Assembly (NCBI GenBank): GCA_965262915.1
Contig: OZ253564.1
Span: 2,848,001 to 2,912,000 of the forward strand
From: Candidatus Spongiisociaceae bacterium
GTDB lineage: Bacteria > Actinomycetota > Acidimicrobiia > Spongiisociales > Spongiisociaceae
Direction: 5' to 3'
Length of the DNA: 64,000 bases
Each line of letters opens with the position of its first letter. Position 1 is the stretch's first letter. The position numbers and the translations under genes were made by a program. Positions 2,597-21,476 of this stretch are shown piece by piece. A model generated the notes under the pieces. The model saw nothing but the letters and a program-made list of their open reading frames with translations. It did no database searches and was not told where the DNA came from.

Positions 2597-2708
2597 CACC
2601 TCACCCGGCTTGACCGGGGGGGCCTCGCCCGGCATGACCGGCGCCTCACCCGGAGTGACCGGAGCCTCGCCCGGAGTGACCGGCGCCTCGCCCGGCGTGA
2701 CCGGGGCC
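2597..2708. repeat. 21-bp tandem repeat, about 5 copies
   Basis: Units of GNGCCTCRCCCGGMGTGACCG, e.g. gcgcctcacccggagtgaccg / gagcctcgcccggagtgaccg. Confidence 0.85.
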
Positions 2709-2962
2709 TATGAGGGGTTGCCCCTTCGAATCGTTACCCACCGATGTGCTGCGGCGGCGGTACAGTTTTAGCGGCGTCTGAGAGTACAGACGCGTTTACG
2801 TCGGCCCCCCGCCCTCCTCCGGGGGGTTCGGCGTTTCCGGGTTGACGTGCGGACACCGAGCGTTGACCACGATTAACGGTCGCATATTTGACCGTGGCCG
2901 GGGCGGGTTATGGCCGCCAGCTGCGGAAACCGGTATCTACCTGGGGAAACACCGTCCCGGCT

Positions 2963-2990
2963 ACTTTACATAACCGGTATTATGGGACAT
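2963..2990 (-). other. dif-like XerC/XerD recombination site
   Basis: Reverse strand ATGTCCCATAA-TACCGG-TTATGTAAAGT; 11-6-11 architecture with a TTATG XerD-type arm. Confidence 0.65.
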
Positions 2991-3061
2991 TCCGGAAGGC
3001 TGGACACGGCCAGTGTTTGGGTTGACCCGCTGTAGTGGACGTTTTTGGGTGTCACCACACT

Positions 3062-3215
3062 CTCCGGCAAAACCGGTGCGGTTCATTGAACTCATCGGAG
3101 AACTTGCGTCTCGGTCGAGTCTCTCCCAACAGGACTCCTTCCCCACACGCTGTGTCCATTCTCGGACATCAAACGCGCTCTTTGTGGAAGTGTCCGGCCA
3201 CCGGGGGGAACTCCA
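3062..3215 (-). mobile_element. IS3-family left-end remnant joined to an IS6110-like end
   Basis: Reverse complement resembles 38918-39045 (GGAGTTCCCCCCGGTGG...GGAAGGAGTCCTGTTGGGAG) and runs into TGAACCGCACCGGTTTTGCCGGAGA. Confidence 0.7.
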
Positions 3216-3242
3216 ACCGTACCGGGAAACCCCCGGTACGGT

Positions 3243-4712
3243 TCAGGGGGCGGGTTGGGGTGGATCGGGGTGTTGACTGCGGTGGAGGAGTGTTGCTGCT
3301 TGGGCTCGGGTGGTTGGTTGGTGGGGGCAGTAACGCGCTGGGTTGGTAGCGCATCCTTTGGTTATGCCGGCGGTTGTGGCTGCGTCGATGTTGGCGGCGT
3401 GGGGGTTGTTGGCGATGTCGGTGTATCCGGTGGGGGTTCGGGGCGTCAGTTCGAACGTTCGGGCTAGAAAGGTTGCCATCTGGTCTCTGGTTAGGTGGTC
3501 GTGGGGGCAGAAGCGGGCGGGTTCGGTGGCGCATCCGTGGGTTATTCCTAGGGTGGAGAGCCGTTCGACGTGGGGTGCCCACCACTTGTCGGGGTCGATG
3601 TCGGCGAAGCGGCTGGTCGCCGTCGGGTCGGGTTCGCTGCTGTCGAGGAGTCGCACGAGCCACACTGCCATGGTCCATCGTTGTATGGGCTGGGCGGGGC
3701 AGAACAGTTGGGGACCGCATTCGGTGCTTTGGAGGATGCTCTGGGTGGCGAGTTCCAGTATGGCGGGTTTGTGGGTGCTTGTGCTGGTATCGCTGTAGGG
3801 GGAAGTGTTTCCTGGGGGTGGTGTGTCACCGTGAGGGGGGGCGACACAGCCGCCGGGGCCGCCGCTGTACAGCCTTCTTGTGGTGGTGGTGGTGCCGTTG
3901 TAGCCGGAGCCTTGATGGTCGGTGGTGAGATACCGGAGGATGCCGTGGGAGATGGCTTTGGCTTCGGCGGCTTGCACCTCGGGGTCGGCGAGGAGGCGCG
4001 CCTCGGCGGGGGTGGACAGGTAGGCGGCTTCGGTTATTGCCGATGTCATCCCTGGGGTGTATTGCAGGATGCCGTAGAGGTCTTTGCCGTCGCGTTTTCT
4101 TACGATGGCGTTGGCTCCCTGGAACACGGTGTCGCGCCATCCGATGTCGTAGCGGGACAGGGCGGTGTGGATCTGGTCGTACAGTATTCCGGCGAGGCGT
4201 TGGGATTTGGGGTTGTGGGCCTGATGGTAGGTTTCGGTGCCCGGGTCGGTGGATCGTCGTTGGGCTCCTCCGTTGTGGTGGATGGAAACGAACACGTACG
4301 GGTTGAGGGCTCGGGCGATTTCGGCTCGTACGACAACCGGTATTCGTATGTCGGTGGTGCGGGTGAGTAGAACGCTGTATCCGTGGGCTCTGAGTTCGGA
4401 GGCGGCCAGCCGCGCGATTGTGAGGTTCAGGTCCTTTTCCGATAGGCGGTTCGATCCGAGGGCTCCGTGTTCGGTGCCGCCGTGGCCGGGATCGAGTACC
4501 ACGTCTACGCCGGCAATGTAGGTGCCTGTGGTGACGAGGCTTTCTTTCCAACAGGTAGTCGTGACCTGATAGCCGTCGTCCTGTATCGCCCGTACGGGAA
4601 GCACGACTCCGGAGGGGGTGATGACCACGCCGTTGCCGGGCGGGTTCGGGGTGATGTCCTGAGCCGTGGTGGGGGCCGCGGTTGCCAGCACAGCTAAGGT
4701 CAGCGCTGCCAT
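3243..4712 (-). CDS. N-acetylmuramoyl-L-alanine amidase (Amidase_3) with C-terminal SLH domains
   Basis: VVLDPGHGG, EKDLNL, FVSIHHN and TEAAYLS motifs; signal peptide MAALTLAVLA; three SLH-like repeats (TRDQMATFL, TRAQAATLL). Confidence 0.9.
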   Translation of the reverse strand: MAALTLAVLATAAPTTAQDITPNPPGNGVVITPSGVVLPVRAIQDDGYQVTTTCWKESLVTTGTYIAGVDVVLDPGHGGTEHGALGSNRLSEKDLNLTIARLAASELRAHGYSVLLTRTTDIRIPVVVRAEIARALNPYVFVSIHHNGGAQRRSTDPGTETYHQAHNPKSQRLAGILYDQIHTALSRYDIGWRDTVFQGANAIVRKRDGKDLYGILQYTPGMTSAITEAAYLSTPAEARLLADPEVQAAEAKAISHGILRYLTTDHQGSGYNGTTTTTRRLYSGGPGGCVAPPHGDTPPPGNTSPYSDTSTSTHKPAILELATQSILQSTECGPQLFCPAQPIQRWTMAVWLVRLLDSSEPDPTATSRFADIDPDKWWAPHVERLSTLGITHGCATEPARFCPHDHLTRDQMATFLARTFELTPRTPTGYTDIANNPHAANIDAATTAGITKGCATNPARYCPHQPTTRAQAATLLHRSQHPDPPQPAP

Positions 4713-5038
4713 CAACGGCCCTAGGGTGTGCGTCAGCGGCCGTGATCTCCCGGGCAAAGCTGGCCGACCTCCGGTCCTGTGGCGCCTGACCCGCCGGTGT
4801 AACACCTGGTCCTCCCCCTTTCCCTGGCCCAATCCTTAGTGAACGGTGCGCCGCTATCGGAGATGTGGTCACAAAGAGGTTCCCCACCGTCGGGGGCACC
4901 TCCCGACCCTAGCCTCGGCTCGCCCGGCCGGGTGCTACTGGGGTTTTCTGGTCGACCGGTTGCCGTTGCCGGTTTCATGGCCGGGGCGCCGGACTGGTAC
5001 GGTTCCGGCCTCGGTACGTCCGGCAACCAGGAGGTCCG

Positions 5039-6127
5039 GTGACACGATCACATCCTGCCAGGTCGCGTTGGGTCTTGGTTGTCGGCTGCCTGCTTGCGAC
5101 CATCCTGGGACCAGGTTTCGCGGCCCATGGGCAGAACCGGCAGGGCTTTGAGGATGTCGGCGACAGTGTGCACTCCCCGGCCATCTCAGCTCTCGAGAAG
5201 GCTGGGATCCTCGAGGGTACAGGCTGTGGGGGGGATCGATTCTGTCCGAACGAACGGTTGGAACGCTGGGTCATGGCCGTGTGGATCACACGAGCGGTCG
5301 AGAGCGGAGACCCCAACCCTATGGCGGTGGCACCTTTCACCGACGTTGATAGTGGTGTCTGGTGGGCGCCCCATGTGGAACGTCTCAACCATCTGGGTAT
5401 AACCAGAGGCTGCGCAACCGGTCCGGCCCGGTACTGTCCTCAGGAACCGGTCACCCGCGCGCAGATGGCCTCGTTCCTCGCCCGGGCGTTTCGCCTGGAT
5501 CCCTCCGGATGGGTCGGCTTTGCTGATACCGCCTCCAACACCCACGAACCGAGCATCAACGCGTTAGCCATGGCCAATATCACAACGGGTTGCGATACGA
5601 GTCCTGTCCGCTACTGCCCTGACAGTACGGTCACCCGCGCGCAGATGGCCACGTTCCTTGCCAGGGCTCTCGACCTGGTCACCGGTCCGGGCGTATCCAC
5701 CATCAAGTTCCTGGATGCGTCTCTACGCGAAGCCGTGGCGGGCGGCGCGAAGCACGTCGTCTACGGTCGGGGCGCACAGCATGTTTGGCTGATCGGAGCT
5801 GATGGAACCCTGTTCGATTCGTACCCGGTGAGCGGCAGAGCAGACTGGCCGGTACCGGGGCGTTACAAGGTACTGTCGAAGTCCCGGCATACCCGCTCGT
5901 TTCAGGGTGGAATCACCATGGAGTACATGGTGCGTTTCGTGCAACCACCCGGCAAGGCAGCCACCGGTTTCCATGACATACCTCTCTACGCGGATGGAAC
6001 CCCGATGCAAACCACCGAAGAACTCGGTCAGTACCGGTCAGCGGGGTGTGTGCGCCAGCGGGACGACAAGGCGCAGCAGCTTTACGAGTGGGCGCCGATC
6101 GGTACCCCGGTTGTGGTGCTGGGCTGA
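5039..6127 (+). CDS. SLH-domain L,D-transpeptidase (YkuD family)
   Basis: Signal peptide, three SLH repeats (VTRAQMASFL), C-terminal GFHDIP...SAGCVR catalytic motif and GTPVVV end. Confidence 0.88.
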   Translation: MTRSHPARSRWVLVVGCLLATILGPGFAAHGQNRQGFEDVGDSVHSPAISALEKAGILEGTGCGGDRFCPNERLERWVMAVWITRAVESGDPNPMAVAPFTDVDSGVWWAPHVERLNHLGITRGCATGPARYCPQEPVTRAQMASFLARAFRLDPSGWVGFADTASNTHEPSINALAMANITTGCDTSPVRYCPDSTVTRAQMATFLARALDLVTGPGVSTIKFLDASLREAVAGGAKHVVYGRGAQHVWLIGADGTLFDSYPVSGRADWPVPGRYKVLSKSRHTRSFQGGITMEYMVRFVQPPGKAATGFHDIPLYADGTPMQTTEELGQYRSAGCVRQRDDKAQQLYEWAPIGTPVVVLG

Positions 6128-6296
6128 GACGGACACGTGACAGCCGGGCTGTGGCCGTTCATGGATGCATAGGGGGATGCTCGGATCCGCAGCGGATTCG
6201 TGCCGCCGGACCCTTCTAGTGCATGCCCAGGTGACCGACTCGATCCAGAACTAGAGTCCAACCAGGCCTCCGCCGCGACTCAAACACAGAGGTGTT

Positions 6297-7769
6297 GTGA
6301 ACAAAGCATGGGCAGACCTCCGTCGGCAGGGGCCCGATCCGCTGGTGGCTGTGGCACTGTCCGCCGTTTGGCCGGGTTTGGGCCATTTCGGGCATAGCAA
6401 CGCTCGTGCGCTGCTGCTCACGAACCTGACCCTGGCCGCTGCTGTTGCAGGAGTTGGTCATGCCGCAACACGCAGCCTGGGTACCCTACTCACCTGGAGC
6501 CTGACCCCTTCGTTGCTGCGGGCACTGATCGCCGCCACGCTTTGCGTCCTGGTCTTTCGGATAGCGGTAGCAGCCGACGCGTACCGAACAGCGGCGGTTC
6601 GCTACGGTACCGGCAGTGGGGGCTTGGCCCGGCGGGTCGGAACCCTAGCGACGCTGGTGGTGGTAGCGGTGATCATGGCTGCGCCTCATGCGATCACGAT
6701 CCGTTTCGCCCTAGCGCAGTTGGACCTGCTGTCAGCGGTCTTTGACACGACCGTCACCAGAACGGCGACCCCCACTCCCGTTCCTGCTACCACGCTTCCT
6801 ACAACACTGCCTTCGACTTCTGTTCCCGAACGGTCCACTTCCCTGCCTGCGCTCGCGCACACAACGTCGGTTCCGTCAACTACCGAACCGGTACCGACCT
6901 GGGACGGTGCCGATCGGCTCACCATCGCGTTGCTCGGTAGTGACGCCGGCTTCGACCGCCATGGGGTGAGAACCGACACGATCATTGTGGTCTCCTTCGA
7001 TGTGGCTACCGGCGACGCTGCGGCGTTTAGTGTGCCGCGCAACTGGCATCATGTCCCTTTCCCCGAAGGGACACCCGCCCATGAACGCTGGCCCGAAGGC
7101 TATCCGGGTATCGCCAACGAGATCTACGGTCTAGGGCTTAGACACCCCGAGGCATTCCCACATGTTGAAGATGCTGCCGGTCACGCGGTCAAATCAGCGC
7201 TCGCTCAGCTAACCGGCCTCGACATCCAGTTCTACGTGCTCATCGACATGGTGGGCTTCGTCAAGTTAATCGATCTGTTCGGCGGTATCGACCTGCATGT
7301 CAGCGAATCGATCAACGACCGGATCAAACCGATCGTGCCCGACGGTCCCCACATCGACATAGTTGTCGAACCGGGCGTTCACCACCTCGACGGTTTAACT
7401 TCCCTAGGTTATGTCCGTTCCCGCACCAGAAGCACGGACTGGCATCGCATGACCCGACAACGATGCGTGATCGAAGCCCTGATCGACCAGATCCCGCCCC
7501 TAGAAGTGATCTACAACTATGCCAAGTTCGTCGACATCATCTCCGACCACATCCAAACCGACGTTCCCCTCGACCGTCTGGAAGAACTCATCTTCCTCAC
7601 GGACAGGCTCGACACATCAAGAATCGTCACCGTCAACTTCATCCCGCCCGAGTTCCAGGACGGCGACGCACCCGTCGTCCAAGTACGCGAGGCGGTCGCC
7701 CAGGCGCTGCAGGGTACCAGCGGTGAGGCGAACGCTTTTCTCCGTGACAGATGCAAAGCGCCCTCCTGA
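6297..7769 (+). CDS. LCP family (LytR-CpsA-Psr) protein
   Basis: N-terminal TM helices, Pro/Thr linker, LLGSD...RTDTIIV...SVPRN...YVRSR...DWHRMTRQ motifs. Confidence 0.92.
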   Translation: MNKAWADLRRQGPDPLVAVALSAVWPGLGHFGHSNARALLLTNLTLAAAVAGVGHAATRSLGTLLTWSLTPSLLRALIAATLCVLVFRIAVAADAYRTAAVRYGTGSGGLARRVGTLATLVVVAVIMAAPHAITIRFALAQLDLLSAVFDTTVTRTATPTPVPATTLPTTLPSTSVPERSTSLPALAHTTSVPSTTEPVPTWDGADRLTIALLGSDAGFDRHGVRTDTIIVVSFDVATGDAAAFSVPRNWHHVPFPEGTPAHERWPEGYPGIANEIYGLGLRHPEAFPHVEDAAGHAVKSALAQLTGLDIQFYVLIDMVGFVKLIDLFGGIDLHVSESINDRIKPIVPDGPHIDIVVEPGVHHLDGLTSLGYVRSRTRSTDWHRMTRQRCVIEALIDQIPPLEVIYNYAKFVDIISDHIQTDVPLDRLEELIFLTDRLDTSRIVTVNFIPPEFQDGDAPVVQVREAVAQALQGTSGEANAFLRDRCKAPS

Positions 7770-7808
7770 CCTTCGCTGCCACCAGTTTGGTGCCTCGCCA
7801 CCCATTTC

Positions 7809-8098
7809 GCCCGCTGCTTCGCCCGCCCCCAACTCTGCCACCGCCGGCACCAAGGCGCCTGCGGTGGCACCCGTCTCAACCAGCACCGCGGCCGCCGCCT
7901 CGACGAAAACCTCGCCACCCGAACCCAAGGTGGCGACAGCCCCCCCAAACCGACACCAACAGCAGCACCGAACCCCGCTACCGAACCCAGACAGACGGTT
8001 CCGGTCACCGCTACCGAACCCCGGGTCATCGACCAGGCACAACTGGAAGCCGCCCTGGCTCGACTACCGGCACCTCTAGCCGCCCAACTCGCCCGCCT
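7809..8098 (+). repeat. ~290-bp degenerate direct repeat, copy 1
   Basis: Homologous to 10930-11218 (shared ccgaacccagacagacg..ttccggtcacc; atcgaccaggcacaact.gaagccgccct). Confidence 0.85.
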
Positions 8099-8347
8099 AG
8101 CTAGCCGCTACGGGACCAGTTCGGAATCCACCGCGCAGACCCCCCGGAGGGACACCCCACACCTGTGATATCTGAAAGCCGTAACCCGTCTACCGGTTCA
8201 GGGGATGCTGCTGGGACAGCAATTAACCTGCCAGGTTCTCCTACATCCACGCGTCCGGATGGATTCCTGTCACACTTGGCGCGTACGGTAAGCAGAGAAA
8301 CAGCGGGGCCCCGCCCACGGGGACAACGGGGAGAAAGCGGTGTGACC

Positions 8348-9268
8348 ATGACCGGCCTATTTGACCTAACAGCGATCCTCGCGGATAAGGCTCTCGCCCT
8401 CGCCGTTAGTGAACAAGTCGCCCCTTCAATGAACGGTCCTGCACTTCGACGGTTGTCAGCGGTGCTCGATGATGTCTCGCTTGGGAACGACTTCGTTGAC
8501 CCCGTGGACGCGGAATGGCTTCGAACTGGTGCGGAAAAGGCCGAAACAGCGGGTCGGCTGCCGTTCTGGGAAACGGAAGTGCAGCGGCTGACCGATGAGG
8601 GTGTCGGCATCATCTCCTGTATTGATCCATCGTATCCACCGAACCTGGCCATGATCCACGACCGTCCGCCGTTCCTGTTCGTACGCGGCAACCTGACCGA
8701 GGCCGACGTTCGCGCCGTGGCCGTCGTGGGGACGCGCGCGGCGAGCGATGAAGGCGTGGGACTGGCAACGCGTATTGCGTCCGAGCTGGCAACCAACCGG
8801 ATCACCGTCGTCTCCGGACTAGCGAAGGGCATAGACACGGCAGCCCACGCAGCGGCGATCAACGCCGGTGGTCGCACCATCGCCGTGTACGGAACCACCA
8901 TCGACAGGGTATACCCGGCCGCTAACAGAGGCCTGGCACGCTCCGTTGCCCGCTCTGGAGCTTGCGTCTCTCAGTTCCTCCCGACAATGCGCACCGGTCC
9001 CTGGTGCTTCCCGGTCCGCAACATCACCACTTCGGGACTCTCACTCGGAACGATCGTCGTCGAGGCCGGGGAGACGTCGGGAGCAAAGATGCAAGCCGAA
9101 GCAGCGCTCGCTCACGGCAAGCGGGTGTTCCTCGTTGAAGAACTCACCCGACAACCCTGGGCGAAAGACATGGCAGAGAACCCTCAGGTAACCGTTGCGT
9201 CAAACGCCCACGACATCGTCACGGCCGTCGACGCGGAGGTCGCGCCCCGCGCCGACGTCCTCATCTGA
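8348..9268 (+). CDS. dprA: DprA/Smf-like DNA-processing protein (probable ShosA-like antitoxin)
   Basis: YPPNL..IHDRPPFLFVRG, VAVVGTR, VVSGLAKGIDTAAH, FPVRN, VEAGETSG motifs; lacks the C-terminal winged helix of competence DprA. Confidence 0.88.
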   Translation: MTGLFDLTAILADKALALAVSEQVAPSMNGPALRRLSAVLDDVSLGNDFVDPVDAEWLRTGAEKAETAGRLPFWETEVQRLTDEGVGIISCIDPSYPPNLAMIHDRPPFLFVRGNLTEADVRAVAVVGTRAASDEGVGLATRIASELATNRITVVSGLAKGIDTAAHAAAINAGGRTIAVYGTTIDRVYPAANRGLARSVARSGACVSQFLPTMRTGPWCFPVRNITTSGLSLGTIVVEAGETSGAKMQAEAALAHGKRVFLVEELTRQPWAKDMAENPQVTVASNAHDIVTAVDAEVAPRADVLI

Positions 9269-9270
9269 CC

Positions 9271-10821
9271 ATGCCTACTACTGCTGAGGAGTACCTCCAG
9301 CCGCTCCTCCCAGGCCTGGTGCCAGTACCGGCGGTCCAACCTGGCGTATGCCCCATCTGCCGGACCGCAGCCAACGACGGCTACGACGACTGCTACCACT
9401 GCGCCGGCCAAACCGTGTCCGTAGTCCCGATCTCGCTGTCGATCCACAGTGAGCTCCTTCACCACCATCTCAGGCACTACAAGGACAACCCGCACGCCGA
9501 CGTTCGTCAGAAACTCACCATCCGCCTTGCCGCACTGATCGAGTTGTTTCTCCGCCACCACCTCGACTCATGTCTCGGTGGCCCCGTACACCGAGTCGCT
9601 ACCGTTCCCTCGCAACACCGCGATGCCCCATGGGGAATCATCCGCTGGCTCGCCCGCTTCGCCGGACAAACCAACCCACTCACCTACCAGCCAGAGCACA
9701 GGTTCGTTGCCACCGCCAACCTCCAAGACCAGCGGGTCCTACTAGGGCGTGTTCACGTTTCTGAGCGTGTCGTGTATGAGCGCGAGGGTGATGAATGCTA
9801 GGAACATCACGTCGAGTTTGTCGTAGCGGGTGAAGACACGCCGGTAGCCTTTGAGCCGTCGGAAGAGCCGTTCGACCTCGTTCCGTCGCTTGTATATCGG
9901 ACGGTTGTAGTCCCACGGGTGGCGGCGGTTGCTTCGGGGTGGGATGACCGGCGTGTAGCCCAGAGCGACGGCCAGTTGCCGTGTTTCGTCCCCTTCATAG
10001 GCGCGGTCCGCTACCAGGAACAGCTCTAGCTGCTCCCCTTCCTGCTCCTTTTTTCGTGGGCCCATCTTTTTGAGGAGCTCCCGCCCATGGGGAGCATCAT
10101 GGTCCTGACCTGGGGAAAGAGCGAATAAGACGGCGCTACAAGCGCTGGCCGCGACCTGTGGATCTTGGTGTTCAACCCTCCCCGGGAGCGACCGATGGCC
10201 TGGGGACCCCGCTTTCGGAGAGCACCACAGCCGTCGGGATGAACCTTGACCGACGTGCTGTCCAGGCCCAGAACTTCGAGGTCGATGAGCTGTTCCTGCT
10301 GTAGACGCTGGAACACCCGGTCCAAGACGCCGCTGGCCGCCCAGCGGCTCATCCGCATGTAAACGGTGTGCCAGTTCCCGAACCGTTCGGGAAGCGCCCG
10401 CCATTTGCAGCCGTGCTCCAGTACGTACAGGATGCCGTTGAGGGCTTGGAGGTTGGATACCTTGACGGTACCGCGGGGTTTCGGGAACACGTCTACTATG
10501 AGTTGGTATTGTTCTTGTGTTATTGTCATATCGTAATGATATCACATCAGTGTAACTTTAGGTGAACACGCCCTAGTAGACGACACCTTCACCTCCGGCC
10601 AGAGCCTCTTAGCCGCTCACCAGGCACTCACCGACGCCGGAGCCGAAGTTGCAGGACCTCTTGTGATCGGCCGCCACGTCCGACCCGACTGGCCACCAAG
10701 CGCAGAACTACTCCAACGCCTCAAATCCATGCAGTGGACTGTGACAAGATGCTGCCGCTGCGCAGGCGTCGTCTGCGACCCACCCCTACGCGACAAGCCA
10801 ACATCACTATTCGGCAACTGA
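9271..10821 (+). pseudogene. ComF-like Zn-ribbon phosphoribosyltransferase (ShosT-like), split by IS5
   Basis: CPIC..CYHC N-terminus. Removing the IS joins 9271-9744 to 10576-10821, restoring VLLVDDTFTSG (PRPP-binding loop) and a 239-aa ORF. Confidence 0.88.
9746..10572 (-). mobile_element. IS5-family insertion sequence with frameshifted transposase
   Basis: Terminal IRs GGCGTGTTCAC/GTGAACACGCC flanked by CTAG duplication; WRALPERFGNWHTVY, LDSTSVKVH, VADRAY and RNEVERLFRRLKGYRRVFTRYDK motifs across two frames. Confidence 0.95.
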
Positions 10822-10929
10822 CACCGGCGAAAAGACCCACGACGTTGACACCCCACCGCCCTGGGATCGTTCCGTGTCCGTCGCTGGCTTCGGGTGGCGG
10901 GCGACGTACCACGGGTCCGGCGGGGACTA

Positions 10930-11218
10930 GCCCGCTGCTTTGCCCAACCCAACCACTGCCCCAGACGACGCCAAAGGTGTGTGCGGCGACCCGCCTCAAC
11001 CTGTACCGCGGACGCTGACTCGACGAACAACTCAAGGGTCGAACCCAACACAGCGACCACAGCTCCCCGACCGGACCAGTACCAGCCCCGAACCCGGCTA
11101 CCGAACCCAGACAGACGATTCCGGTCACCACTCCAGAACCCCGGATCATCGACCAGGCACAACTCGAAGCCGCCCTAGCCCGCCTACCCGCACCCCTAGC
11201 AGCCCAACTCGCCCGCCT
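10930..11218 (+). repeat. ~290-bp degenerate direct repeat, copy 2
   Basis: Homologous to 7809-8098; a shorter third trace lies near 11570-11610. Confidence 0.85.
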
Positions 11219-11642
11219 TACCACCGCCCGCAAGGCGTTGGGCTAGCAATGCGACCGACGTCGTCATCGCACCAGCCCCCGAAACACCACGACCACGACG
11301 CAGGTCGACGGGGGACCTAGATCGCCGGGCCGAACGACCGGCCTGACCACCGGGGTCTGATATCCCGATGCTCTCAGTTCCGCCTTCCCGCATAGCCGGC
11401 CACCTCTTCCCCATAACCAGTACCTGAACCTCATTGACCCGGCTGCGTTCGGTGTGCTACACCAACTGAGCCCTCCACGGACAGCGTAACCAACACCAGA
11501 GGCTTCGCCCCGCGCCGAAGGCGCATGCGGTACCCACACGTTCAAAGTGGGCAGCGGACGGCGAATGTATCAGCCCCGAACCCAGGCGGCCGATTCCAGT
11601 CACGACTCCCGGGAGGACTGGGTCGAGCCAGGGGGTCGCGTG

Positions 11643-11672
11643 GAGCGGCCCGCCGTTTTGGGCGGGCCGCTC
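11643..11672 (-). terminator. hairpin downstream of groEL
   Basis: Perfect 12-bp stem GAGCGGCCCGCC/GGCGGGCCGCTC, about 30 bp after the groEL stop. Confidence 0.7.
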
Positions 11673-11700
11673 GTGCTGGTAGATGTGGTGGTCTGGGGGG

Positions 11701-13359
<1,659 letters not shown>

Positions 13360-13382
13360 CTAATCCTGTCCTACAGCAACCG

Positions 13383-13673
13383 TCAACCGACGATCGCCAA
13401 CAGGTCGCGGGACGAGAGGATCAGATACTCATCGCCTTCATGTTTCAATTCGGTGCCTCCGAACTTGGAGTAGACGACCACATCACCCTCGGATACATCG
13501 AGGGGGATCCGCTCTCCGTCATCACTCAGATCACCAGGCCCCACAGCCATAATCGTTCCGGTCTGTGGTTTTTCCTTGGCCGTGTCGGGGATTACCAGTC
13601 CCGACGACGTGCGCTGCTCGTCATCCTCGTTGGGCCTGACGATCACACGGCCGCCGAGTGGCTTCAGATTCAT
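13383..13673 (-). CDS. groS: co-chaperonin GroES
   Basis: [29 protein letters not shown] motifs; SD AAGGAGG upstream. Confidence 0.99.
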
Positions 13674-13767
13674 CCGAAGTCCTCCTTAAACAGGTGAATA
13701 TGCGTACAAAGCGCCAACCGCCCGATCGGGCATCACCAGAAACCAGTAGTCTCCCACGGCACCTGGA

Positions 13768-13822
13768 TTGGCACTCGTACCTTACGAGTGCCAAACTAGC
13801 AGACCCTCCCGAAGACTGCTAG
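13768..13822. promoter_or_regulatory. tandem CIRCE (HrcA operator) elements
   Basis: TTGGCACTC-N9-GAGTGCCAA at 13768-13794 and degenerate CTAGCAGAC-N9-GACTGCTAG at 13796-13822, upstream of groES. Confidence 0.92.
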
Positions 13823-13915
13823 TCCAGTAGTCGGTCGCCAATGGTGGCCAACTCGATATCAAACCCGAGATAACCCCGCAACTGGTGGATGTCCCCACCT
13901 ACCGGCGCATCCTCT

Positions 13916-13946
13916 TATTGCACATATGGGACGGATATGTGCAATA
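13916..13946. other. palindromic tyrosine-recombinase-type site, copy 1
   Basis: TATTGCACATA-TGGGACGGA-TATGTGCAATA; identical to 17009-17039. Confidence 0.75.
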
Positions 13947-14246
13947 CCCGACATGTCCGAAACACTGTGACCAGGCGGTTCGTGTCCGATCCCACGATAG
14001 TTGGCGAATTCTCACGGACGTGGCGAACCTTCTCATCTAGTCGGCGAATGAGCCTTCGGTGTTCACCGCGACACGCCGGTCTTCTACCATTCGCTGGAAT
14101 TCTCCCGTGATATGGGAACGGTGCCGTGTCCTGGGGTTCTGAGGTCAATCCTTTCTCCCGCTACCTACCCGACGGGTGTTAGCGGTCTCGTCTCCGATAC
14201 CGTGGCAACCTCCACCGCAGACCTGCGTGACGGATGCGGCGGTGAC

Positions 14247-14927
14247 TCACATGTGTTCGATATAGCTTGCTGCGACGTGTTCGGGTGGGTTGGTGTAGCG
14301 GGCGATGTAGCGCTGTGATCGGTGACCGAGGCGTCGTTGGGGTTCGGTGTGTTCAGCGTCGTGGAGCCGGCCGATCCGTTCGAGGATGGTGTTGATGCTA
14401 CGTCCGGAGAGGCGCCCGTCCGGGCGGCGGCTGCTCACCGATGCGGCGGATAGGAAAAATGCGGTGGACTTGGGGGTGGTGTCGGCCGGTCGTTCCTCCT
14501 CCAGGTAGTCGGCGAGGGCGTGGCGGGCGTCGACGGAGAGGAAGACTGTGCGCTGAGTTTTTCCTTTGCCCCGAACACCCACGACCCGGGCGCGGCGGGC
14601 GGCACGCAGTTGCGCTGGTCGGGACGGTTGAACCTGGTCGAGGTCAAGCAGCACAAGTTCGAGGCGTCGGAGTCCGGTGGACAACAGCACGAACACGATT
14701 GCACGATCTTGGACGGGTCGGCTGTGGCCATGCAGCCGAGGCGGATCCCCTCTCCCCCGCCGCCGGCCCTTACGTTGGCTGTATCTTTCCAGCCGATCGC
14801 ATAGGTTCTTGAGTGATCTCACCTGTCCCGGGGCGAGGCTGCGCGGTTCCAACGGTGGTAGCGGCAACGCAGAGACACCGGTGGAGGGGTTTCCGGTCGC
14901 GAACAGCCCGGGCTCTTGTGCGCTCAC
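14247..14927 (-). pseudogene. tyrosine recombinase remnant
   Basis: RAIVFVLLSTGLRRLEL, VRGKGK and LGH..Y motifs present; HxxR box and N-terminus missing. Confidence 0.8.
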
Positions 14928-15995
14928 CCAGGTGGTACCAGGCTACCGGTTGCCTTCACAGAAGGGGCATTCCGTGAAGGCACCGGCTGCCGAAGCAGCG
15001 ACGTGTCGTCCCCAGCTTCAGCAGCAACACCCCCGGCCTCGGGACGGTTGACCGCCGCCAACCAAGTCGCTGTCCGAACCCGTCGCCGGAGCAACCGACG
15101 AGACCGCACCCGGCCACTTCTCGTACCGCCTCGTACATCGCGACGCTACCCCGGTCGGGCACGAGACCGCCTGGTGGAAGTCGTTCCGATCTACCGCCGC
15201 AGCGCCAGGGTTGTTAGGGCTGTTGGAATCCGTGGTCTAGTGGCCGTTGTCCGGTTCGGTTTCGGCGTTTGGTGGCTGGGGTGGGGGGGATGTTTATGAC
15301 CGGCGCGTAAGGAATCTTTTGGTGCGCGCCCTTCGGGCGACGCCCCGAGGAGAAGAATCACCACGAAACGGCGGGTGGTGGGACGTGGCCCACCCACCCG
15401 GCGTCGGCGGAGGTGGACTCCGGAGAGGCGCAACTACGAAAACCGGGGCTACTTCGGGGTCTTGGGCGGGACCTGAGGTGGGCTTGGTGGGGTCGGAGCT
15501 GGCTCGGCGGTGGGGTTGGCATGTCGCCGGAGCAGGCCGCTCTCGAGGTCGACCGGGTGATACGGCTGGGACGGCCGGTACGGAACCGCCGAGGCCTCGC
15601 CACCCGCCACTGGATCATCCTAGACAACAGCACCAGCCAGGCACTCACCGGAGACCCGCTCCCACGATCGGCCCTGGTCTCCGTAACCAGGTAACCAGCC
15701 GAACAGTTCGTGGTACACAAGCCGTAGCCAGTATCCTCGCGTTTGGGACAGGTTGGGTAGCCGCCCAAATGGGAGGCACACCCCGGGAGAGACAACCCGG
15801 CCAACGACCTACCAGACGCTACAACCCCACAGCCACAGCGACCAACTCCCACATAACGAGCAGGTCGACGGTTCATTTCCGTTTTTCTGCAACTTTTCTG
15901 TTTTGGGTGCGTCTTGTGGGTGGAAGTATTAGTGGGCGGGGCCGAGCGAAGCGTTTGGTGTTCCGTCCTAGGGAGATTCGAGGAGGTACGAGTTG

Positions 15996-16652
15996 ATGTC
16001 AGATCTTATTGATGGCCTGTCGGACGGTCTACAGAACGCGGGGGAGACGATCCTGTCTTTTTTGCCGCGTCTGATAGGAGCTTTGGTCATCCTGGTGGTC
16101 GGGTGGCTGGTCGCCCGGTTGGTACATCGGGCGGTCAAACGTCTGCTGAAAGCGGTAGGCCTCGACGGTTTGTTGGAACGGGCCGGGCTTGGTGAGCGGC
16201 TGCAGGCGGTGGGCCATACGGCTACCGACCTTGTTGCGCGGGCGATCTATTGGATCGCGTTGTTGGTGGTGTTCCTGCTCACGGCCGAAGCGTTGGATGT
16301 GGAGTATCTCAGCAGTATCTTGACGGGGCTGATCGGGTATCTACCGTTGGTGGTGGTGGCCATTGTCATCGTCATCGTCGCAGCGGCGGTTGGTGCATTC
16401 CTCGCTGAGGTGTCAACGCCTTGGTCTCAGGAGCGCCATATCCGGTGGCTGCCCACAACGGCGCGGTGGATGGTCATCGGGTTCGGTGTGTTCGCTGCTC
16501 TGAACACGTTGAAGATCGCCGAGGAGATCGTCAACACCCTGTTCATCGCTGTGGTAGGGACAGTCGGAGCGATCCTGGTTATCGCTTTCGGGGTTGGGGG
16601 CATCTCCGCGGCGAAGGAATGGTGGGCCAGCGTCCTACCCGACCGCGACTGA
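15996..16652 (+). CDS. TM-helix-repeat membrane protein (MscS-associated TM_helix/CmpX-like)
   Basis: Two repeats of FLP.LIGAL.IL.VGW.VA / YLP.V..AIVI; C-terminal AFGVGG; SD GGAGG. Confidence 0.85.
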   Translation: MSDLIDGLSDGLQNAGETILSFLPRLIGALVILVVGWLVARLVHRAVKRLLKAVGLDGLLERAGLGERLQAVGHTATDLVARAIYWIALLVVFLLTAEALDVEYLSSILTGLIGYLPLVVVAIVIVIVAAAVGAFLAEVSTPWSQERHIRWLPTTARWMVIGFGVFAALNTLKIAEEIVNTLFIAVVGTVGAILVIAFGVGGISAAKEWWASVLPDRD

Positions 16653-17008
16653 CCAAAGGTCTCGACGTGGCCTGACCGACCGTCCCCGGTTCCTGCTCGG
16701 CCGGCCGGTCAGGCCACTAAGGAAAGTTACGCCCCCGGGGATTCTTCGTAACTTTCCCACCTGCTTGTGCGTCCCCCTACTGAAACGTAGAAAGAGGGGC
16801 AGAGGCAAAGAGCGTCCCGTCCACTCGACATTTGAGGAGGTAACCGATGGTGATCGCAGTGAACCGCGAGTGGTTGTTCGCGATCCCAGCGACAGCCGCG
16901 TAGCTCGCAGACGAACGGGTCCTCCAGCTCTTGGAAAACGTGTTCGACAGGCTCGGGTAGTACACCGCGCTTCAACGGACCGGAACGGGACCTGCCCGAA
17001 GTGTCCGG

Positions 17009-17039
17009 TATTGCACATATGGGACGGATATGTGCAATA
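17009..17039. other. palindromic tyrosine-recombinase-type site, copy 2
   Basis: Identical 31-mer to 13916-13946; its left flank is shared with 18512-18538. Confidence 0.75.
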
Positions 17040-17091
17040 ACCGTCCCGGACGGTAGGCGGCTGGGGGTGGTTGTCGTCGGGCTGCTGGGGG

Positions 17092-18336
17092 TCAGGGGGT
17101 GGTGGGTTGGTTTTGGGTGGTGAGGGCTGTGTCGAGGCTGGCGATTAGGTGGGTGATGTCGGGTGCTTCGAAGACTCGGTATCTTTGTTTGCCGACGCTG
17201 CGTACTGTGAGGATGCCTACTTGGGTGAGCCGGTTGATGGCCTGGCCTGTTGTGACGGTGGATCGTCCGATGGTGGCGGCGGCTGTTGTGACGGTGAAGA
17301 CCGGTCGGGCGGGTAACAGGCCCACGAGCAGGTCAGCGGCTGATCCACGCCGGATGGGTGCGGCCCGGGCGCGGAGGTCTGCTTCTAGTGCGGAGACAGC
17401 ATCGAGGTAGCGTTGCGCTTCGTGGCAGGCGTCGTAGGTGGCCTCGAGGAACACTCCTAGCCATTGTTCGGCAGCCTGGTCTCGGCCCGGGTCGGTGGGG
17501 GCACCTTCGTGCCGGTAGGCGGTGAGTCCGTCAAAGTAGACGTTGGGAGACCGGGCGAGGGCGGCGCTGATGGGCGGCACGAACGCGGGAGCGAGATTCC
17601 GCTGGTGTAGCACGGCGTGGATTAGTGCCCGCCCGACGCGTCCGTTGCCGTCGGCGAACGGGTGGATGGTCTCGAATTGGGCATGGGCGATACCGGCTTG
17701 GATCAGCGGTGGGATATCGGATCGGTTCATGTAGGCGACTAGGTCCGCCAACAGGTCGGGGACTTGTTCGGCGGGGGGTGGCACATAGGAAGCGCCCACT
17801 GGTGTGTATGCGTTTGCACCGATCCAGTTCTGCGTGTCGCGTACCCAGCCGCCTAGGTGTGGATGAGCAGAGGTGGCCATCAGCCGGGTGTGGACCTCCA
17901 GTAGGTCTGTGGTTCGGAGCGGTCCACCGCTGGTAGCGACGCGGATAGCGGTTTCCATCGCTTCGAGGTTCCCCAGCACCTCTGTCGCCGCCCGATCCGA
18001 CGACCTGCCCCCTTCCCGTTGTTCGGCCTCGGCGGTGAGGATCCTCCGAGCCGATGGGTTGATCGCTTCGATACGCGAAGACGCCATGGCCTCGACGCGC
18101 AGCAGCACATGAGCGAACGTGTCCAAAGGATGGGGGCTGCCGGCGGCGTGTCGGGTGTTCAGCGCCCGAACCGCGGCGGAGGCGTCACCAGCTGTGGCTA
18201 CCACATCGAGGGACAGACGCGGTGTCCACCCACCAAGGGGGTCTGGCACATACGCCTGGTAACGGCCGCCCCGCCGCTCTCTCGCTGCTGGCGCGTCCAG
18301 ACGTGGCTGCCAGTACCCCGAGACGTATCGGCCCAT
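17092..18336 (-). CDS. Fic family protein
   Basis: HAQFETIHPFADGNGRVGR catalytic motif, EAMASSRIE inhibitory-type helix, C-terminal HTH. Confidence 0.95.
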   Translation of the reverse strand: MGRYVSGYWQPRLDAPAARERRGGRYQAYVPDPLGGWTPRLSLDVVATAGDASAAVRALNTRHAAGSPHPLDTFAHVLLRVEAMASSRIEAINPSARRILTAEAEQREGGRSSDRAATEVLGNLEAMETAIRVATSGGPLRTTDLLEVHTRLMATSAHPHLGGWVRDTQNWIGANAYTPVGASYVPPPAEQVPDLLADLVAYMNRSDIPPLIQAGIAHAQFETIHPFADGNGRVGRALIHAVLHQRNLAPAFVPPISAALARSPNVYFDGLTAYRHEGAPTDPGRDQAAEQWLGVFLEATYDACHEAQRYLDAVSALEADLRARAAPIRRGSAADLLVGLLPARPVFTVTTAAATIGRSTVTTGQAINRLTQVGILTVRSVGKQRYRVFEAPDITHLIASLDTALTTQNQPTTP

Positions 18337-18340
18337 AACC

Positions 18341-19699
18341 CTAACCCCCAACCAACCTAACCAAACTGACGAACACTAACCCTAGCTTAGAACCTTTTGG
18401 GGGGTGGGTAAGGCAGAAGCGGCCAGGGTGGGTGGATGTGGATGTGTTGGCGGGTCGGGGGGTGGGGTGGTTGCCGTGGGCGGCGTCGGACAGCTCGCAT
18501 CGTTTGTACCCGAACGGGACCTGCCCGAAGTGTCCGGGTATTGCAGGTATGGGGGCGTTATCTGCCGTCGTAACCCGTCGGAGGTCTGGGAGGGCCGTGT
18601 TGAGGACGGCCGCTGCATCGAAGATACCGGTCTCATGGCGGGCGAAGCGCTCGTAGGCGTCCTTGTCGAGGATCCGGAGCACGACTAGAGCAACAGCGGA
18701 GCCTACCCATAGGTCATTGTCAGGCAGCGACGACAGCACCACGGCCGCTAGATGGGTCGCTTGCTCCAGGTCACGCAGACTGCATTCGGGGTGTTCCACT
18801 ACCAGGTGCATCATCTGGCGGATCCATCCGTTGGTCGGTCCGAAACGGGCGGCGAGTCCAGTAGCGTCCAGTAGCCCATCGAGGAACGTTGTGATGTCCG
18901 GTTGGGCTGGTACCGGAAGGCCAACATGCAGATCAGCGAAGCGTCGCAGATACCTGTCGGCGCCAAACTCCTCACCGTAGAGCGACCCCACAGCACAGCG
19001 CAGCTGGTCTCGGTTGATCGCCAAGACAACCACAACTCCGTCAACTGAGAACAGGTGCCTGACCACCTCCAAAAGATCGAGGGCATACGCCGGTCGGCAT
19101 CTATCCAACTCATCCACGAACACGACTAGGGGACGGTCCTCGGCTGTGGCGGCCCCCAGCGCCTTGGTGAAGGCGTCGATGGCCGTCTTAGCAGCGTCCC
19201 ACGAACCCAGCATCGAGGGGCCGCTACCCAGCATCTCCCGGTCGATGATCCCTTTCGTGAGTACCTTGGCGAGATGCCACGCTACAGCGTCGGCATTTCG
19301 CCTCAAGGTGTCCCTGACGGGACCAGAGACACGAGCCGATATCGCGGCCACCAGATCGACCAGGGGCCTCTGGGTGTACTGCTGCCGCCACGCGTTGAAC
19401 TCGACCACCCGCACGTCTCGGGATTGAAGAAACGCCGAACACATCCTCACGAACGCGGTCTTGCCCGAACCCCACGGGGCGTCGAGTAACACAACAGCAG
19501 GACCTTCAATACCCGAAAGCACAGAACAGAAAGCCTCGACGTGGTGGCGCCGGCTCAGTTTGTCGTGCTTGAAGGGGTCCTTCGGGTCAGCCTCGAACTC
19601 GTTGGGGTGTAACCGCACGAACACCCAGGATACAAAGCGGCGGAAGCTGCGAAGGGTCCCGTCGAGGCGGAAGACGAGGACCGACCCGGCTGTGGCCAT
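18341..19699 (-). CDS. KAP-family P-loop NTPase, C-terminus disrupted
   Basis: LLDAPWGSGKT, VEFNAW, VFVDELDRCRP, YLRRF; sequence beyond ~18570 reads through a recombination-site repeat. Confidence 0.85.
   Translation of the reverse strand: MATAGSVLVFRLDGTLRSFRRFVSWVFVRLHPNEFEADPKDPFKHDKLSRRHHVEAFCSVLSGIEGPAVVLLDAPWGSGKTAFVRMCSAFLQSRDVRVVEFNAWRQQYTQRPLVDLVAAISARVSGPVRDTLRRNADAVAWHLAKVLTKGIIDREMLGSGPSMLGSWDAAKTAIDAFTKALGAATAEDRPLVVFVDELDRCRPAYALDLLEVVRHLFSVDGVVVVLAINRDQLRCAVGSLYGEEFGADRYLRRFADLHVGLPVPAQPDITTFLDGLLDATGLAARFGPTNGWIRQMMHLVVEHPECSLRDLEQATHLAAVVLSSLPDNDLWVGSAVALVVLRILDKDAYERFARHETGIFDAAAVLNTALPDLRRVTTADNAPIPAIPGHFGQVPFGYKRCELSDAAHGNHPTPRPANTSTSTHPGRFCLTHPPKGSKLGLVFVSLVRLVGG
18512..18569. 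other. degenerate recombination site, copy 3
   Basis: GAACGGGACCTGCCCGAAGTGTCCGG flank as at 16983-17008, then TATTGCAGGTA-TGGGGGCGT-TATCTGCCG. Confidence 0.65.
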
Positions 19700-19968
19700 T
19701 GACGCCGACGGACAGCTACACGCCGAATCCGGGGGTGTCCTGGTTATGGGCTCGGCGGCCGTTACCGGTGCTATCCATGCAAACTGACGCCCCGATCACA
19801 TCGTCGAGAACTAGTGGTTGGTTCCACGGTTTCCCAGGCACCTCATGAGCTTGCAGCGGAAGGGGGTGTAGGTGGTGGGGGTTTAGGAGGGGGAGCCGTG
19901 TTGGGGCTGGTGAGGGTGTGTGGGGTCGGTCGGGTTCTCTTGTTGGTGGGGTACGGAGGCCCGACGGG

Positions 19969-20120
19969 TCACCAGCCGCACCAGGATCCCCACAAAACAG
20001 AGACGGTCCGGGATGCGTGGTTATGGCATCGGAGTGGATGGTTGTCCTCACGGGACGGTATCAAAGCCTCGACCGCTGTCCAGACCACGTTTGCTACTTC
20101 GGGTTCGAGCGCGCGCATAA
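19969..20120 (-). pseudogene. IS5-family transposase N-terminal fragment
   Basis: MRALEPEVANVVWTAVEALIP..DNHPLRCH, continuing frameshifted into CFVGILVRLVT. Confidence 0.65.
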
Positions 20121-20275
20121 TGGTGTCTCCACCAGTTGGGGTGAGTTTTTTGCACTCGGTATCAAACCCGAGGAACCTCCTCAACTGGTGGATTTCCCCA
20201 CCCGGGCACACACCCCACAGCCTCCCTACCCGCGCGCTGGCTGTCCTGAAACGCCCAGCCTGCCTAACTGCCCCC

Positions 20276-20469
20276 TGAGCCCCTCCCACGGAAGGGTCCT
20301 CCGTTGCCCACAGCGGGGAAGGGCCAGGCCAGACCCGGCCTCAGCCTCTGATGATTTTCGAGCCGCCAGTTTCGGGCGGAAACACCCCCGAACCCGACCC
20401 CCGAACCGTTAACCAACGCGACCCAAAAGCCCGGAAGCCGATTTGGGGGTTGGGAGAACCCGGCCACGA
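20276..20469 (-). repeat. dispersed non-coding element, copy B
   Basis: Reverse complement aligns with 1890-2092 and 106-159. Confidence 0.7.
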
Positions 20470-20595
20470 CCCATACAGCTTGGCCGTTCTAAGTTTGCAG
20501 CCCTCGGTCCGATTGTCTGGGTTCCCCTCGGGTAAGCGCCCATACCCGGTACGCTTAGGTTATCTATCCCACTGTGGGATTGTTGAGGAGGTATC

Positions 20596-20841
20596 ATGGC
20601 GAGTTACCGTTGGACTAGACGGGTAACTGTTATTGGCGGCGGTTTCCTAGCACTGCTAGTCCTGTTTGTCGCCGTTACCCGGATCCTGAACGTAGAAGTC
20701 GCCGGTGTGCAACCCGAGGCCTGGGCACTGACCGCCACCATGACTGCGCCGCTCACCCTTGGGACTCTGCTGGTAGCCATCTCGGTGACGGCAGTAGCCG
20801 AGAGATCACGACGCCACCGAACACCAAAACCGGTGCGATAG
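20596..20841 (+). CDS. small two-TM membrane protein
   Basis: Strong SD GAGGAGG; two hydrophobic helices. Confidence 0.7.
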   Translation: MASYRWTRRVTVIGGGFLALLVLFVAVTRILNVEVAGVQPEAWALTATMTAPLTLGTLLVAISVTAVAERSRRHRTPKPVR

Positions 20842-21476
20842 CAAACGCGTACCGTGAAACCCCCTATGACCAGTGCCCGCCCCCAACAAGGCCGCCCACC
20901 ACCCACATATCCCCCCGGCCGCCACTGCGCCACCGACAGCTGCACGGCGCGCCTATCCATCTACAACCCGACCGACCACTGCGGCCTCCACTCCCCCCTC
21001 AAACGGGACCGCCAACGCTGGTGAGACCATCGGGCGGGTAACCGCTGTCGGCGGCCGGTCGAGCCCCCCGAGTCCCTTTCGGAGGCCGAGAGTACGCCAG
21101 CAGATGGGCGGGGCCGTTACGTGGGGAGAAACAGCCCGAGGTTCCCAGGCCCACAACGCTGCTCTACCCGCGGGCTCACCGGATGCGGGACACCGACGAC
21201 GACCACTCCCGATCCGCCGCCGGCATGTCTTTACCCACCAGCACCCGCAGCGACACGACCAAAAGCCGACATTGGGTGACCACCATTAGGCCGCCCGTCG
21301 TCGAGACCACACCACCGACACAAGCCCCCAGCGGAAGGGTGGTCCGTTACCTGGTCGAGCAGGGCAAGAGGGTGGGGATTGGCGGATGTAGCCTCATCGG
21401 TGCCGCTGGTGACGCAAATGCCGCTGTTCTAGCGGGGCCAGGCTCCAGACACTCGCCGTTGGGGGAGTGATAGCAG

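What the first reader, a model, noticed from the sequence alone, without database searches (positions are those of the whole stretch)
13916..18569. Tandem cassettes delimited by palindromic recombination sites
Seen: an identical 31-bp palindrome with an asymmetric 9-nt core, in direct orientation at 13916 and 17009, brackets a 3.1-kb unit containing a tyrosine-recombinase remnant and a membrane gene. A degenerate third site (18539-18569) shares a 26-bp flank with the second and brackets the Fic gene. It also coincides with the point where the KAP NTPase loses similarity. Inference: a recombinase-driven cassette-stacking system, integron-like in effect but with lox/dif-style sites.
Basis: partly seen in the sequence, partly recalled or inferred. 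Interest (0 to 1): 0.7.

Follow-up and report, generated by a model that had tools for sequence, protein, structure and literature searches.

The report
Orphaned transposon resolution sites bracketing cargo
The repeated 31-base palindrome is real and matches the site that sits in front of a transposon-type DNA-swapping enzyme encoded elsewhere in this genome; stray copies likely let that enzyme paste in, and perhaps cut out, blocks of island DNA such as this 3.1-kb piece, though an orderly integron-like gene array is not what the sequence shows.

Summary
Observation confirmed, with one correction: 12-bp arms around a 7-nt core, not 9. The site has about 20 copies genome-wide. Its likely partner is not the remnant inside the unit, which is catalytically deleted and has its own different palindrome at 14951-14982. 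It is an actinobacterial tyrosine-resolvase family, with three intact genes elsewhere in the genome. The same palindrome-plus-third-arm design lies upstream of 30 of 60 homologs (0 of 53 controls), some divergent from Tn3 transposases. For crossover at the sites: left and right halves are shuffled between loci, site 3 is a hybrid of two subfamilies, and the junction a 3,093-bp circle would have exists in another locus. Against a cassette array: site 1's left join is an IS5-family insertion, KAP is cut at the outer arm edge rather than in the core, genes are not co-oriented, and no unit recurs between sites elsewhere. No circle or empty site was seen, but the read data could not show one. Best reading: TnpI/IRS-like res cores, detached from their transposon, acting as integration and rearrangement hot spots. 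The scan reported this site family twice before elsewhere in this genome.

The parts
13851..13914 (.). Terminal 64 bp of an IS5-family element (remnant); its TTA target (13915-13917) overlaps the first two bases of site 1
   Evidence: 17 of 17 other copies examined are followed by TTA or TAA at this point; full copy at G000 999495-1000460 has an inverted partner end and DUF4096/DDE_Tnp_1 ORFs
13916..13946 (+). Site 1: 12-7-12 palindromic core (S1)
13947..13976 (+). Conserved 30-bp right flank of the resolvase-linked (type A) sites; the accessory third arm at +78 and the resolvase gene are missing here
14247..14927 (-). Remnant of a different tyrosine recombinase family: N-terminus lost, 31-aa internal deletion removing HxxR
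   Evidence: four other damaged or truncated copies in the genome
14951..14982 (.). Second, unrelated palindrome (S2): the site found upstream of the remnant's homologs
   Evidence: conserved upstream of homologs in Chloroflexota and Bacillota
15993..16652 (+). Membrane protein with mechanosensitive-channel TM helices (cargo)
   Evidence: PF05552; paralog at G000 1154380-1155041, 78%, with no S1 listed near it
16983..17008 (+). 26-bp left flank shared with site 3; related to the left flank of a resolvase-linked site in locus L040
17009..17039 (+). Site 2: identical to site 1, the only identical pair among 190 pairs of genomic sites; no accessory arm
17092..18351 (-). Fic-domain protein (Fic_N + Fic; homologs suggest a start at 18336)
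18431..18514 (.). Truncated copy of a multi-copy non-coding repeat between Fic and site 3
   Evidence: matches G000 1241283-1241340 and L158; continues differently after 18514 in 4 of 4 runs
18512..18538 (+). Second copy of the 26-bp left flank, plus one G
18539..18569 (+). Site 3: hybrid core, left arm of the S1 subfamily joined to the right half of a second subfamily (type D)
18570..19627 (-). KAP-family P-loop NTPase, native part; about 100 C-terminal residues are replaced by read-through across site 3 to 18341

Best explanation
The three palindromes are copies of the site that lies upstream of an actinobacterial tyrosine-recombinase family, and they are likely the crossover cores of a Tn3-type resolution (res/IRS) site that has come loose from its transposon. 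Shown: the complete module is a 12-7-12 core, a third arm about 78 bp downstream, then the recombinase gene. Intact genes lie at G000 1434914-1435861, 1464813-1465730 and 315781-316698, and the three window copies keep only the core. Inferred: the enzyme acts in trans on such bare cores with relaxed selectivity, as TnpI does on core-only sites, so that incoming site-bearing circles are occasionally integrated and neighbouring blocks swapped. The 3,093-bp unit is most likely one such integrated circle and would be excisable. Site 3 is likely the product of an earlier crossover between two subfamilies. IS insertion and deletions then trimmed the neighbourhood (IS5 end at site 1, KAP C-terminus lost at site 3). 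The result is opportunistic stacking of island DNA at res cores, not a dedicated array of single-gene cassettes.
For: Cognate pairing: the recombinase's coding sequence starts within 1.5 kb to the right of 8 of 20 genomic sites. A 7-nt-spaced palindrome with a third arm at about 67, 77 or 88 bp lies upstream of 30 of 60 homolog loci versus 0 of 53 downstream controls (20 of 80 loci skipped as short or duplicate, spacings chosen), and on plasmid pFAJ2600. Tn3 origin: transposase hits in 10 of 80 homolog loci; in L041, L049, L055 and same-genus L189 the transposase starts divergently just left of the palindrome. Intact R-K-H-R-H-Y motifs in three genomic copies. Exchange at the site: G000 4391113 shares its left side (-84 to +27) with L039:2906 and its right side (+4 to +186) with L158:5750; all four combinations of the two arm variants occur, and second-subfamily right halves carry S1-type left arms. 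Circle test: site 2's left flank and site 1's right flank occur together around one site in L040 (17/24 and 23/30; 11 of 200,000 random positions reach 17/24), while the outer flanks match no other site. Sites 1 and 2 are the only identical pair of 190. A second direct pair, 3,095 bp apart, brackets an RCC1-repeat gene next to an intact recombinase. Core-only TnpI sites recombine both intra- and intermolecularly (PMC2847244, passages).
Against: No circle or empty site was observed. Similarity between loci starts at the outer edge of the left arm (-11 to +10 in 66 of 66 non-overlapping pairs among 25 site loci), and KAP alleles without site 3 part from the window at 18570-18572, the outer edge of the right arm; a crossover in the core does not predict such edges by itself. 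The original left neighbour of site 1 was replaced by an IS end, so the pre-integration target cannot be rebuilt. The circle argument rests on one locus (L040). Another S1 (G000 4081172) lies inside, not at the end of, a 4.2-kb insert that G302 lacks. Recombinase expression, binding and activity were not tested.
Confidence: 0.55

Rival explanations
1. A dedicated, selected cassette-stacking system: the recombinase plus its upstream site is a platform like intI-attI, each cargo block carries its own left half-site, and blocks are routinely added, excised and reordered.
For: Left flanks of recombinase-linked sites are nearly all unique while right flanks are shared; two direct pairs of about 3.1 kb with cargo; defence-like or toxin-antitoxin-like genes (GmrSD, KwaB, AAA_21, Fic/Doc) near several sites; many alternative left flanks at site-3-like sequences in 4 of 4 runs; 20 sites in this genome and 9 in G301.
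Against: No unit was found between sites in a second context; Fic homologs in 5 of 5 loci lack the site. Units are mosaics of pseudogenes and repeats with mixed gene orientation. Only 4 of 33 homolog loci hold a second site copy, and 2 of those are clearly inverted. The pattern matches in 4 of 7 other genomes of the genus (two with a single weak hit) and 0 of 21 other family members. The longest array is three sites.
Confidence: 0.18
2. Relics only: three separate copies of a decayed resolution module came to lie in tandem and were each trimmed by IS insertion and deletion; the 3.1-kb segment never moved as a unit.
For: The left join of site 1 is an IS5-family insertion; KAP is cut outside the core; both recombinase families are mostly pseudogenes here; only one Tn3 transposase fragment remains in the genome; window sites lack the accessory arm.
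Against: It does not explain the hybrid site 3, the left/right shuffles, the identity of sites 1 and 2, or why transposase sequence is missing right up to the arm in every S1 copy examined. An IS target of TTA needs T at position -1, whereas the site-2/site-3 flank has G there, so site 1 probably had a different left flank (one-base inference).
Confidence: 0.17
3. The palindrome marks the end of a transposon-like element whose boundary lies just outside the arm, so each copy's unique left flank is simply target DNA.
For: Similarity starts at the outer arm edge; inverted site pairs bound 4.0- and 7.5-kb segments in L099 and L070; the remnant's family has its palindrome at both ends of recombinase-plus-Tn3-transposase units (L017, L019, L020).
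Against: The window's sites are direct, not inverted; no common right end, target duplication or transposase accompanies the S1 copies; in Tn3-linked relatives the site is internal, between transposase and recombinase.
Confidence: 0.08

Closest known systems
[quoted passage not shown]
   Same: Palindromic core upstream of a simple tyrosine recombinase, with extra directly repeated binding motifs; linked to Tn3 transposase in relatives; core alone expected to recombine without selectivity.
   Different: IRS has 14-bp motifs, a 4-bp spacer and two accessory motifs in 116 bp; here 12-7-12 with one clear accessory arm at +78. The transposase is divergent in relatives and absent here. About 20 dispersed cores. 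Sequence kinship of the enzyme to TnpI was not tested.
TnpI/attI of Tn4655 on plasmid NAH7 (Sota et al. 2006; only the title was seen, in reference lists of PMC6723655 and PMC5336314; content recalled)
   Same: A transposon-derived tyrosine recombinase proposed to spread gene blocks without its transposase.
   Different: One large catabolic segment in Pseudomonas (recalled) versus many small chromosomal-island sites in an actinobacterium; no sequence comparison was made.
pdif-bounded dif modules of Acinetobacter (PMC9455709, passages)
   Same: Short recombinase cores bounding cargo blocks, toxin-antitoxin-like cargo, IS elements inserting right beside the sites.
   Different: pdif sites are read by host XerC/XerD; here the arms are symmetric and the partner is a mobile resolvase. 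Identical dif modules recur in many contexts, which was not found here.
Integrons (IntI, attI, attC)
   Same: Recombinase with an adjacent site whose far side varies between copies.
   Different: The enzyme scores 34.7 bits against a cut-off of 265 for TIGR02249. The site folds into a perfect 12-bp stem with no extrahelical bases. Units are multi-part and not co-oriented.
Site-specific integrase of Rhodococcus plasmid pFAJ2600 (NC_003846.1; the name PmrA and a multimer-resolution role are recalled)
   Same: 41% identical homolog with the same 12-7-12 core and third arm upstream.
   Different: Single site on a 5.9-kb plasmid with no transposase annotated.

Membership tests
Tn3-family tyrosine-resolvase res site (TnpI/IRS type) | Core of two inverted recombinase-binding arms around a 6-8 bp asymmetric spacer | tested here: met
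   12-7-12; feature as stated in PMC2847244
Tn3-family tyrosine-resolvase res site (TnpI/IRS type) | Site lies upstream of its own tyrosine recombinase, with accessory directly repeated motif(s) | tested here: met
   Met for the family (30 of 60 versus 0 of 53) and for 5 of 12 other genomic copies checked; the three window copies lack both the accessory arm and the gene
Tn3-family tyrosine-resolvase res site (TnpI/IRS type) | Inside an element with Tn3 transposase and terminal inverted repeats | tested here: not met
   One transposase fragment genome-wide, 1.6 Mb away; present beside 10 of 80 homologs and in L189
Tn3-family tyrosine-resolvase res site (TnpI/IRS type) | Recombinase belongs to the TnpI clade by sequence | not tested
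   No TnpI sequence was fetched; NCBIfam gives only sub-cut-off Xer-like hits
Tn3-family tyrosine-resolvase res site (TnpI/IRS type) | Recombinase cleaves at the spacer edges and resolves direct repeats | not testable with these tools
   Catalytic motifs intact in three copies; activity needs an assay
Integron | IntI-type integrase | tested here: not met
   TIGR02249 34.7 and 25.5 bits versus cut-off 265
Integron | attC sites folding into imperfect hairpins with extrahelical bases (feature recalled) | tested here: not met
   Sites 1 and 2 fold into a perfect 12-bp stem with a 7-nt loop; site 3 does not fold beyond shuffles, z -1.0
Integron | Array of co-oriented single-gene cassettes (feature recalled) | tested here: not met
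   Unit 1 holds a minus-strand pseudogene, a second recombinase's site, repeats and a plus-strand gene; Fic and KAP are on the minus strand
dif/pdif modules | Site with distinct XerC and XerD arms around a 6-bp spacer (geometry recalled) | tested here: not met
   Arms are symmetric with a 7-nt spacer and track a non-Xer recombinase
dif/pdif modules | The same module recurs in different contexts with site-exact ends | tested here: inconclusive
   Not found for the Fic or membrane-gene units, but the relatives are other species and short-read contigs break at the 31-mer

The most novel reading that the evidence does not exclude
In this genus a Tn3-derived tyrosine resolvase has been freed from its transposase and turned into a gene-collecting device: bare res cores act as reversible docking sites, cargo circles (defence, toxin-antitoxin and surface-protein genes) are stacked at them, and an intact enzyme in trans still excises and reorders the blocks. 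This would be a further route to cassette arrays besides integrons and pdif modules.
Probability: 0.2. Interest if true: 0.75.

Novelty: new variant of a known kind. Interest (0 to 1): 0.42.

Why it matters
It assigns a precise, conserved target site to a widespread but poorly described actinobacterial tyrosine-recombinase family, with natural arm variants, so a loxP-like recombinase/site pair can be tested directly. It also shows how transposon resolution sites can outlive their transposase and become junctions of genomic islands. If circles are found, it would be a cassette mechanism parallel to integrons and pdif modules. As it stands the chemistry is known in kind and much of this locus is decayed, so interest is moderate.

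Tried and rejected
Remnant in the unit as cognate enzyme: rejected (own site S2; HxxR deleted). The different left flanks of site 1 and its twin module at G000 1454574 first looked like proof of crossover; rejected after the IS5-family end was recognised. Reads for circle or empty site: laid 4 of the 20 holding runs on 12000-21500 and showed 15 joints (21 more not shown), none skipping or circularising the unit. The contigs break at the 31-mer (X1 records 5 and 6), so this says nothing either way. Contig depths stepped at the sites in X5, X6 and X8 (Fic above its neighbours), but the tool warns that depth is no copy number; not used. Viral contigs: 0 matches. Class-wide pattern search: 6 of 300 other genomes had 1-2 one-mismatch hits, not examined. 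Empty-site test at another copy (G000 4081172 versus G302): the site is internal to the insert. The window's groES neighbourhood is not syntenic with relatives, so no empty allele could be read there. A consistent orientation of genes left of the sites was looked for by eye and not seen. PDB search gave only distant Xer-like hits. My early note placed S2 at 14933-14965; the correct span is 14951-14982. Literature searches listed no description of this family's site; the library lacks most subscription papers and no supplements were read, so absence from print is not established.
Full report
Observation. The 31-mer is identical at 13916 and 17009, in direct orientation, 3,093 bp apart; arms are 12 bp and the core 7 nt. 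Site 3 at 18539 differs at 10 positions and shares 26 bases of left flank with site 2. Pfam confirms the recombinase remnant, membrane gene, Fic and KAP genes. The window is G000:C1:2848001-2912000. A matrix search finds 20 sites above score 17 in the genome, four of them weak; shuffled genomes gave none above 18 and 200 shuffled windows none above 17. The matrix was trained on 11-14 of these sites, so the scores of those are circular; the exact-arm count (9 versus 0.06 expected) is not.

Which enzyme. The remnant inside the unit lacks its N-terminus and 31 residues including HxxR. Its homologs (15 loci) lie beside Tn3 transposases (6 loci) or Mu-type transposases (3 loci) among the 9 checked by Pfam, and carry a different palindrome upstream; that palindrome is present at window 14951-14982. 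So the remnant is cargo. The 31-mer instead precedes a second family: its coding sequence starts within 1.5 kb to the right of 8 of 20 genomic sites, and of none of the three window sites. Complete modules read core, 30-bp conserved flank, third arm at +78, gene. Three genomic copies keep all catalytic motifs. Across 80 metagenome homolog loci, 60 could be tested and 30 have a 7-nt-spaced palindrome with a third arm, against 0 of 53 downstream controls (the allowed spacings were picked). Plasmid homologs, including pFAJ2600, have it too. Ten of the 80 loci hold Tn3 transposase sequence, and in L041, L049, L055 and same-genus L189 it starts divergently just left of the palindrome. This is the layout of a Tn3-type resolution site (PMC2847244, abstract, introduction and passages; PMC7157771, passages). 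The genome itself keeps one transposase fragment, far away.

Evidence for crossover at the sites. Among 25 site loci, shared sequence starts at -11 to +10 of the site in 66 of 66 non-overlapping pairs (the pairs are not independent, and L039 and L040 may not be independent of the same-genus genomes). G000 4391113 shares its left side with L039:2906 and its right side with L158:5750. The two arm variants occur in all four combinations, and right halves of a second subfamily carry either their own or S1-type left arms; site 3 is such a hybrid. If the 3,093-bp unit is circularised on paper, its junction pairs site 2's left flank with site 1's right flank; that pairing exists around one site in L040 (17/24 and 23/30, null 11 of 200,000), while the outer flanks match no other of the 32 sites compared. 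Sites 1 and 2 are the only identical pair of 190. A second direct pair at G000 1435995/1439090 brackets an RCC1-repeat gene beside an intact recombinase.

Evidence against a tidy cassette system. The 64 bp left of site 1 are the end of an IS5-family element: 17 of 17 other copies are followed by TTA or TAA, and here the TTA overlaps the site. KAP homologs run about 100 aa beyond the point where the window protein enters site 3. Contigs from three runs carry KAP alleles without site 3: X5 records 14 and 15 and X6 records 20 and 21 stop matching at 18570-18572 with letters left over, and X6 and X10 have 203-255 unmatched letters before 18586, which by eye align with one 3-base gap to about 18570 (depths 2-18, and at 88% likeness some may be related organisms). 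So site 3 is a true breakpoint, but at the outer arm edge and not in the core. In all four runs Fic's upstream region also continues into other DNA at 18413, without site 3. Fic homologs in 5 loci of G307, G321, G323 and G325 have no site. Unit 1 is a mosaic of pieces repeated elsewhere with non-site boundaries. Only 4 of 33 homolog loci hold a second site. One genomic site lies inside, not at the edge of, an insert missing from G302. The pattern matches in 4 of 7 other genomes of the genus and 0 of 21 other family genomes; close homologs of the enzyme occur in 7 of 200 other genomes of the order.

Reads. An X6 contig with 28 differences in 1,086 bases runs from the membrane gene to 17009, so that join is shared by a diverged strain.

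Mechanism. Shown: site anatomy, pairing with the recombinase family, Tn3 linkage in relatives, loss of the accessory arm in the window, shuffled halves, the IS end, KAP truncation. Inferred: that the enzyme binds and cuts these cores; that bare cores recombine without selectivity, as TnpI cores do; that unit 1 arrived as a circle and could leave as one. Unexplained: why so many junctions lie at the outer arm edges, and why several sites lose the module at +61 to +68.

Comparison. It works like TnpI/IRS but is not filed as a member: no transposon surrounds it and kinship to TnpI was not tested. It fails the integron and dif tests. Precedents for resolvase-driven gene spread are Tn4655 (title only; full text not held) and pdif modules (PMC9455709, passages). 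PMC8138268 (passages) lists simple-recombinase subgroups, and the passages seen do not describe this one. PMC6312765 (passages) gave only the general idea of plasmid multimer resolution. Seven searches listed no account of this site; supplements were not read. Two earlier scan notes on other parts of this genome reached a similar assignment; my reading was recorded before seeing them and they are not counted as support.

Verdict. A real feature and a new variant of a known kind: res cores of a Tn3-derived tyrosine resolvase acting as island junctions, with one probable integrated circle. Interest 0.42; the cassette-system reading has about one chance in five.

Noticed in passing
window 14951-14982; L017, L019, L020: The remnant's family has its own palindrome with a third arm about 87 bp away; in several Chloroflexota and other loci it stands at both ends of a recombinase-plus-Tn3-transposase unit, with inverted outer flanks.
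   Followed up: partly
   Followed up: partly
window 11701-13673: groES-groEL is one of three 96-99% identical copies; the copy at G000 3.29 Mb has the upstream gene seen in relatives, so the window copy looks island-borne or duplicated.
   Followed up: partly
L001:5995-9120 (G000 1435995-1439120): Second direct pair of sites, 3,095 bp apart (versus 3,093 here), around an RCC1-repeat surface protein gene next to an intact recombinase; the near-equal length is unexplained and may be chance.
   Followed up: partly
window 13947-13985 and G000 1439090, 1454574, 4081172, 4448331, L157:956, L160:5365: Sites that have lost the recombinase gene keep the same 30-37 bp of right flank and diverge at +61 to +68, suggesting a second constraint or breakpoint there.
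   Followed up: no
window 49940-50942 and 43800: A more distant member of the same recombinase family (49% identity, interrupted) with its own 12-7-12 site at 50912; a weak S1-like match at 43800.
   Followed up: partly
window 19841-21168: Segment with an IS5-like remnant duplicated at 99% at G000 1420125-1421451.
   Followed up: no
window 18828: KAP alleles in runs X5, X6 and X8 lack 2 bases here and carry 3 gaps in all over the gene; effect on the frame not checked.
   Followed up: no
window 21477-29850: Defence-like island genes: SDH-type protease, two DUF3800 proteins, a 1,369-aa HTH plus STAND-like NTPase.
   Followed up: no
L070:140-7650; L099:461-4462: In other lineages, inverted copies of the family's site with identical cores bound 7.5- and 4.0-kb segments containing the recombinase and cargo, and left flanks recur with different right flanks.
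   Followed up: partly
G000 1465990, 4921769, 4924664: Three sites appear to have lost the 78 bp between core and accessory arm, joining the core directly to the sequence after the third arm.
   Followed up: partly
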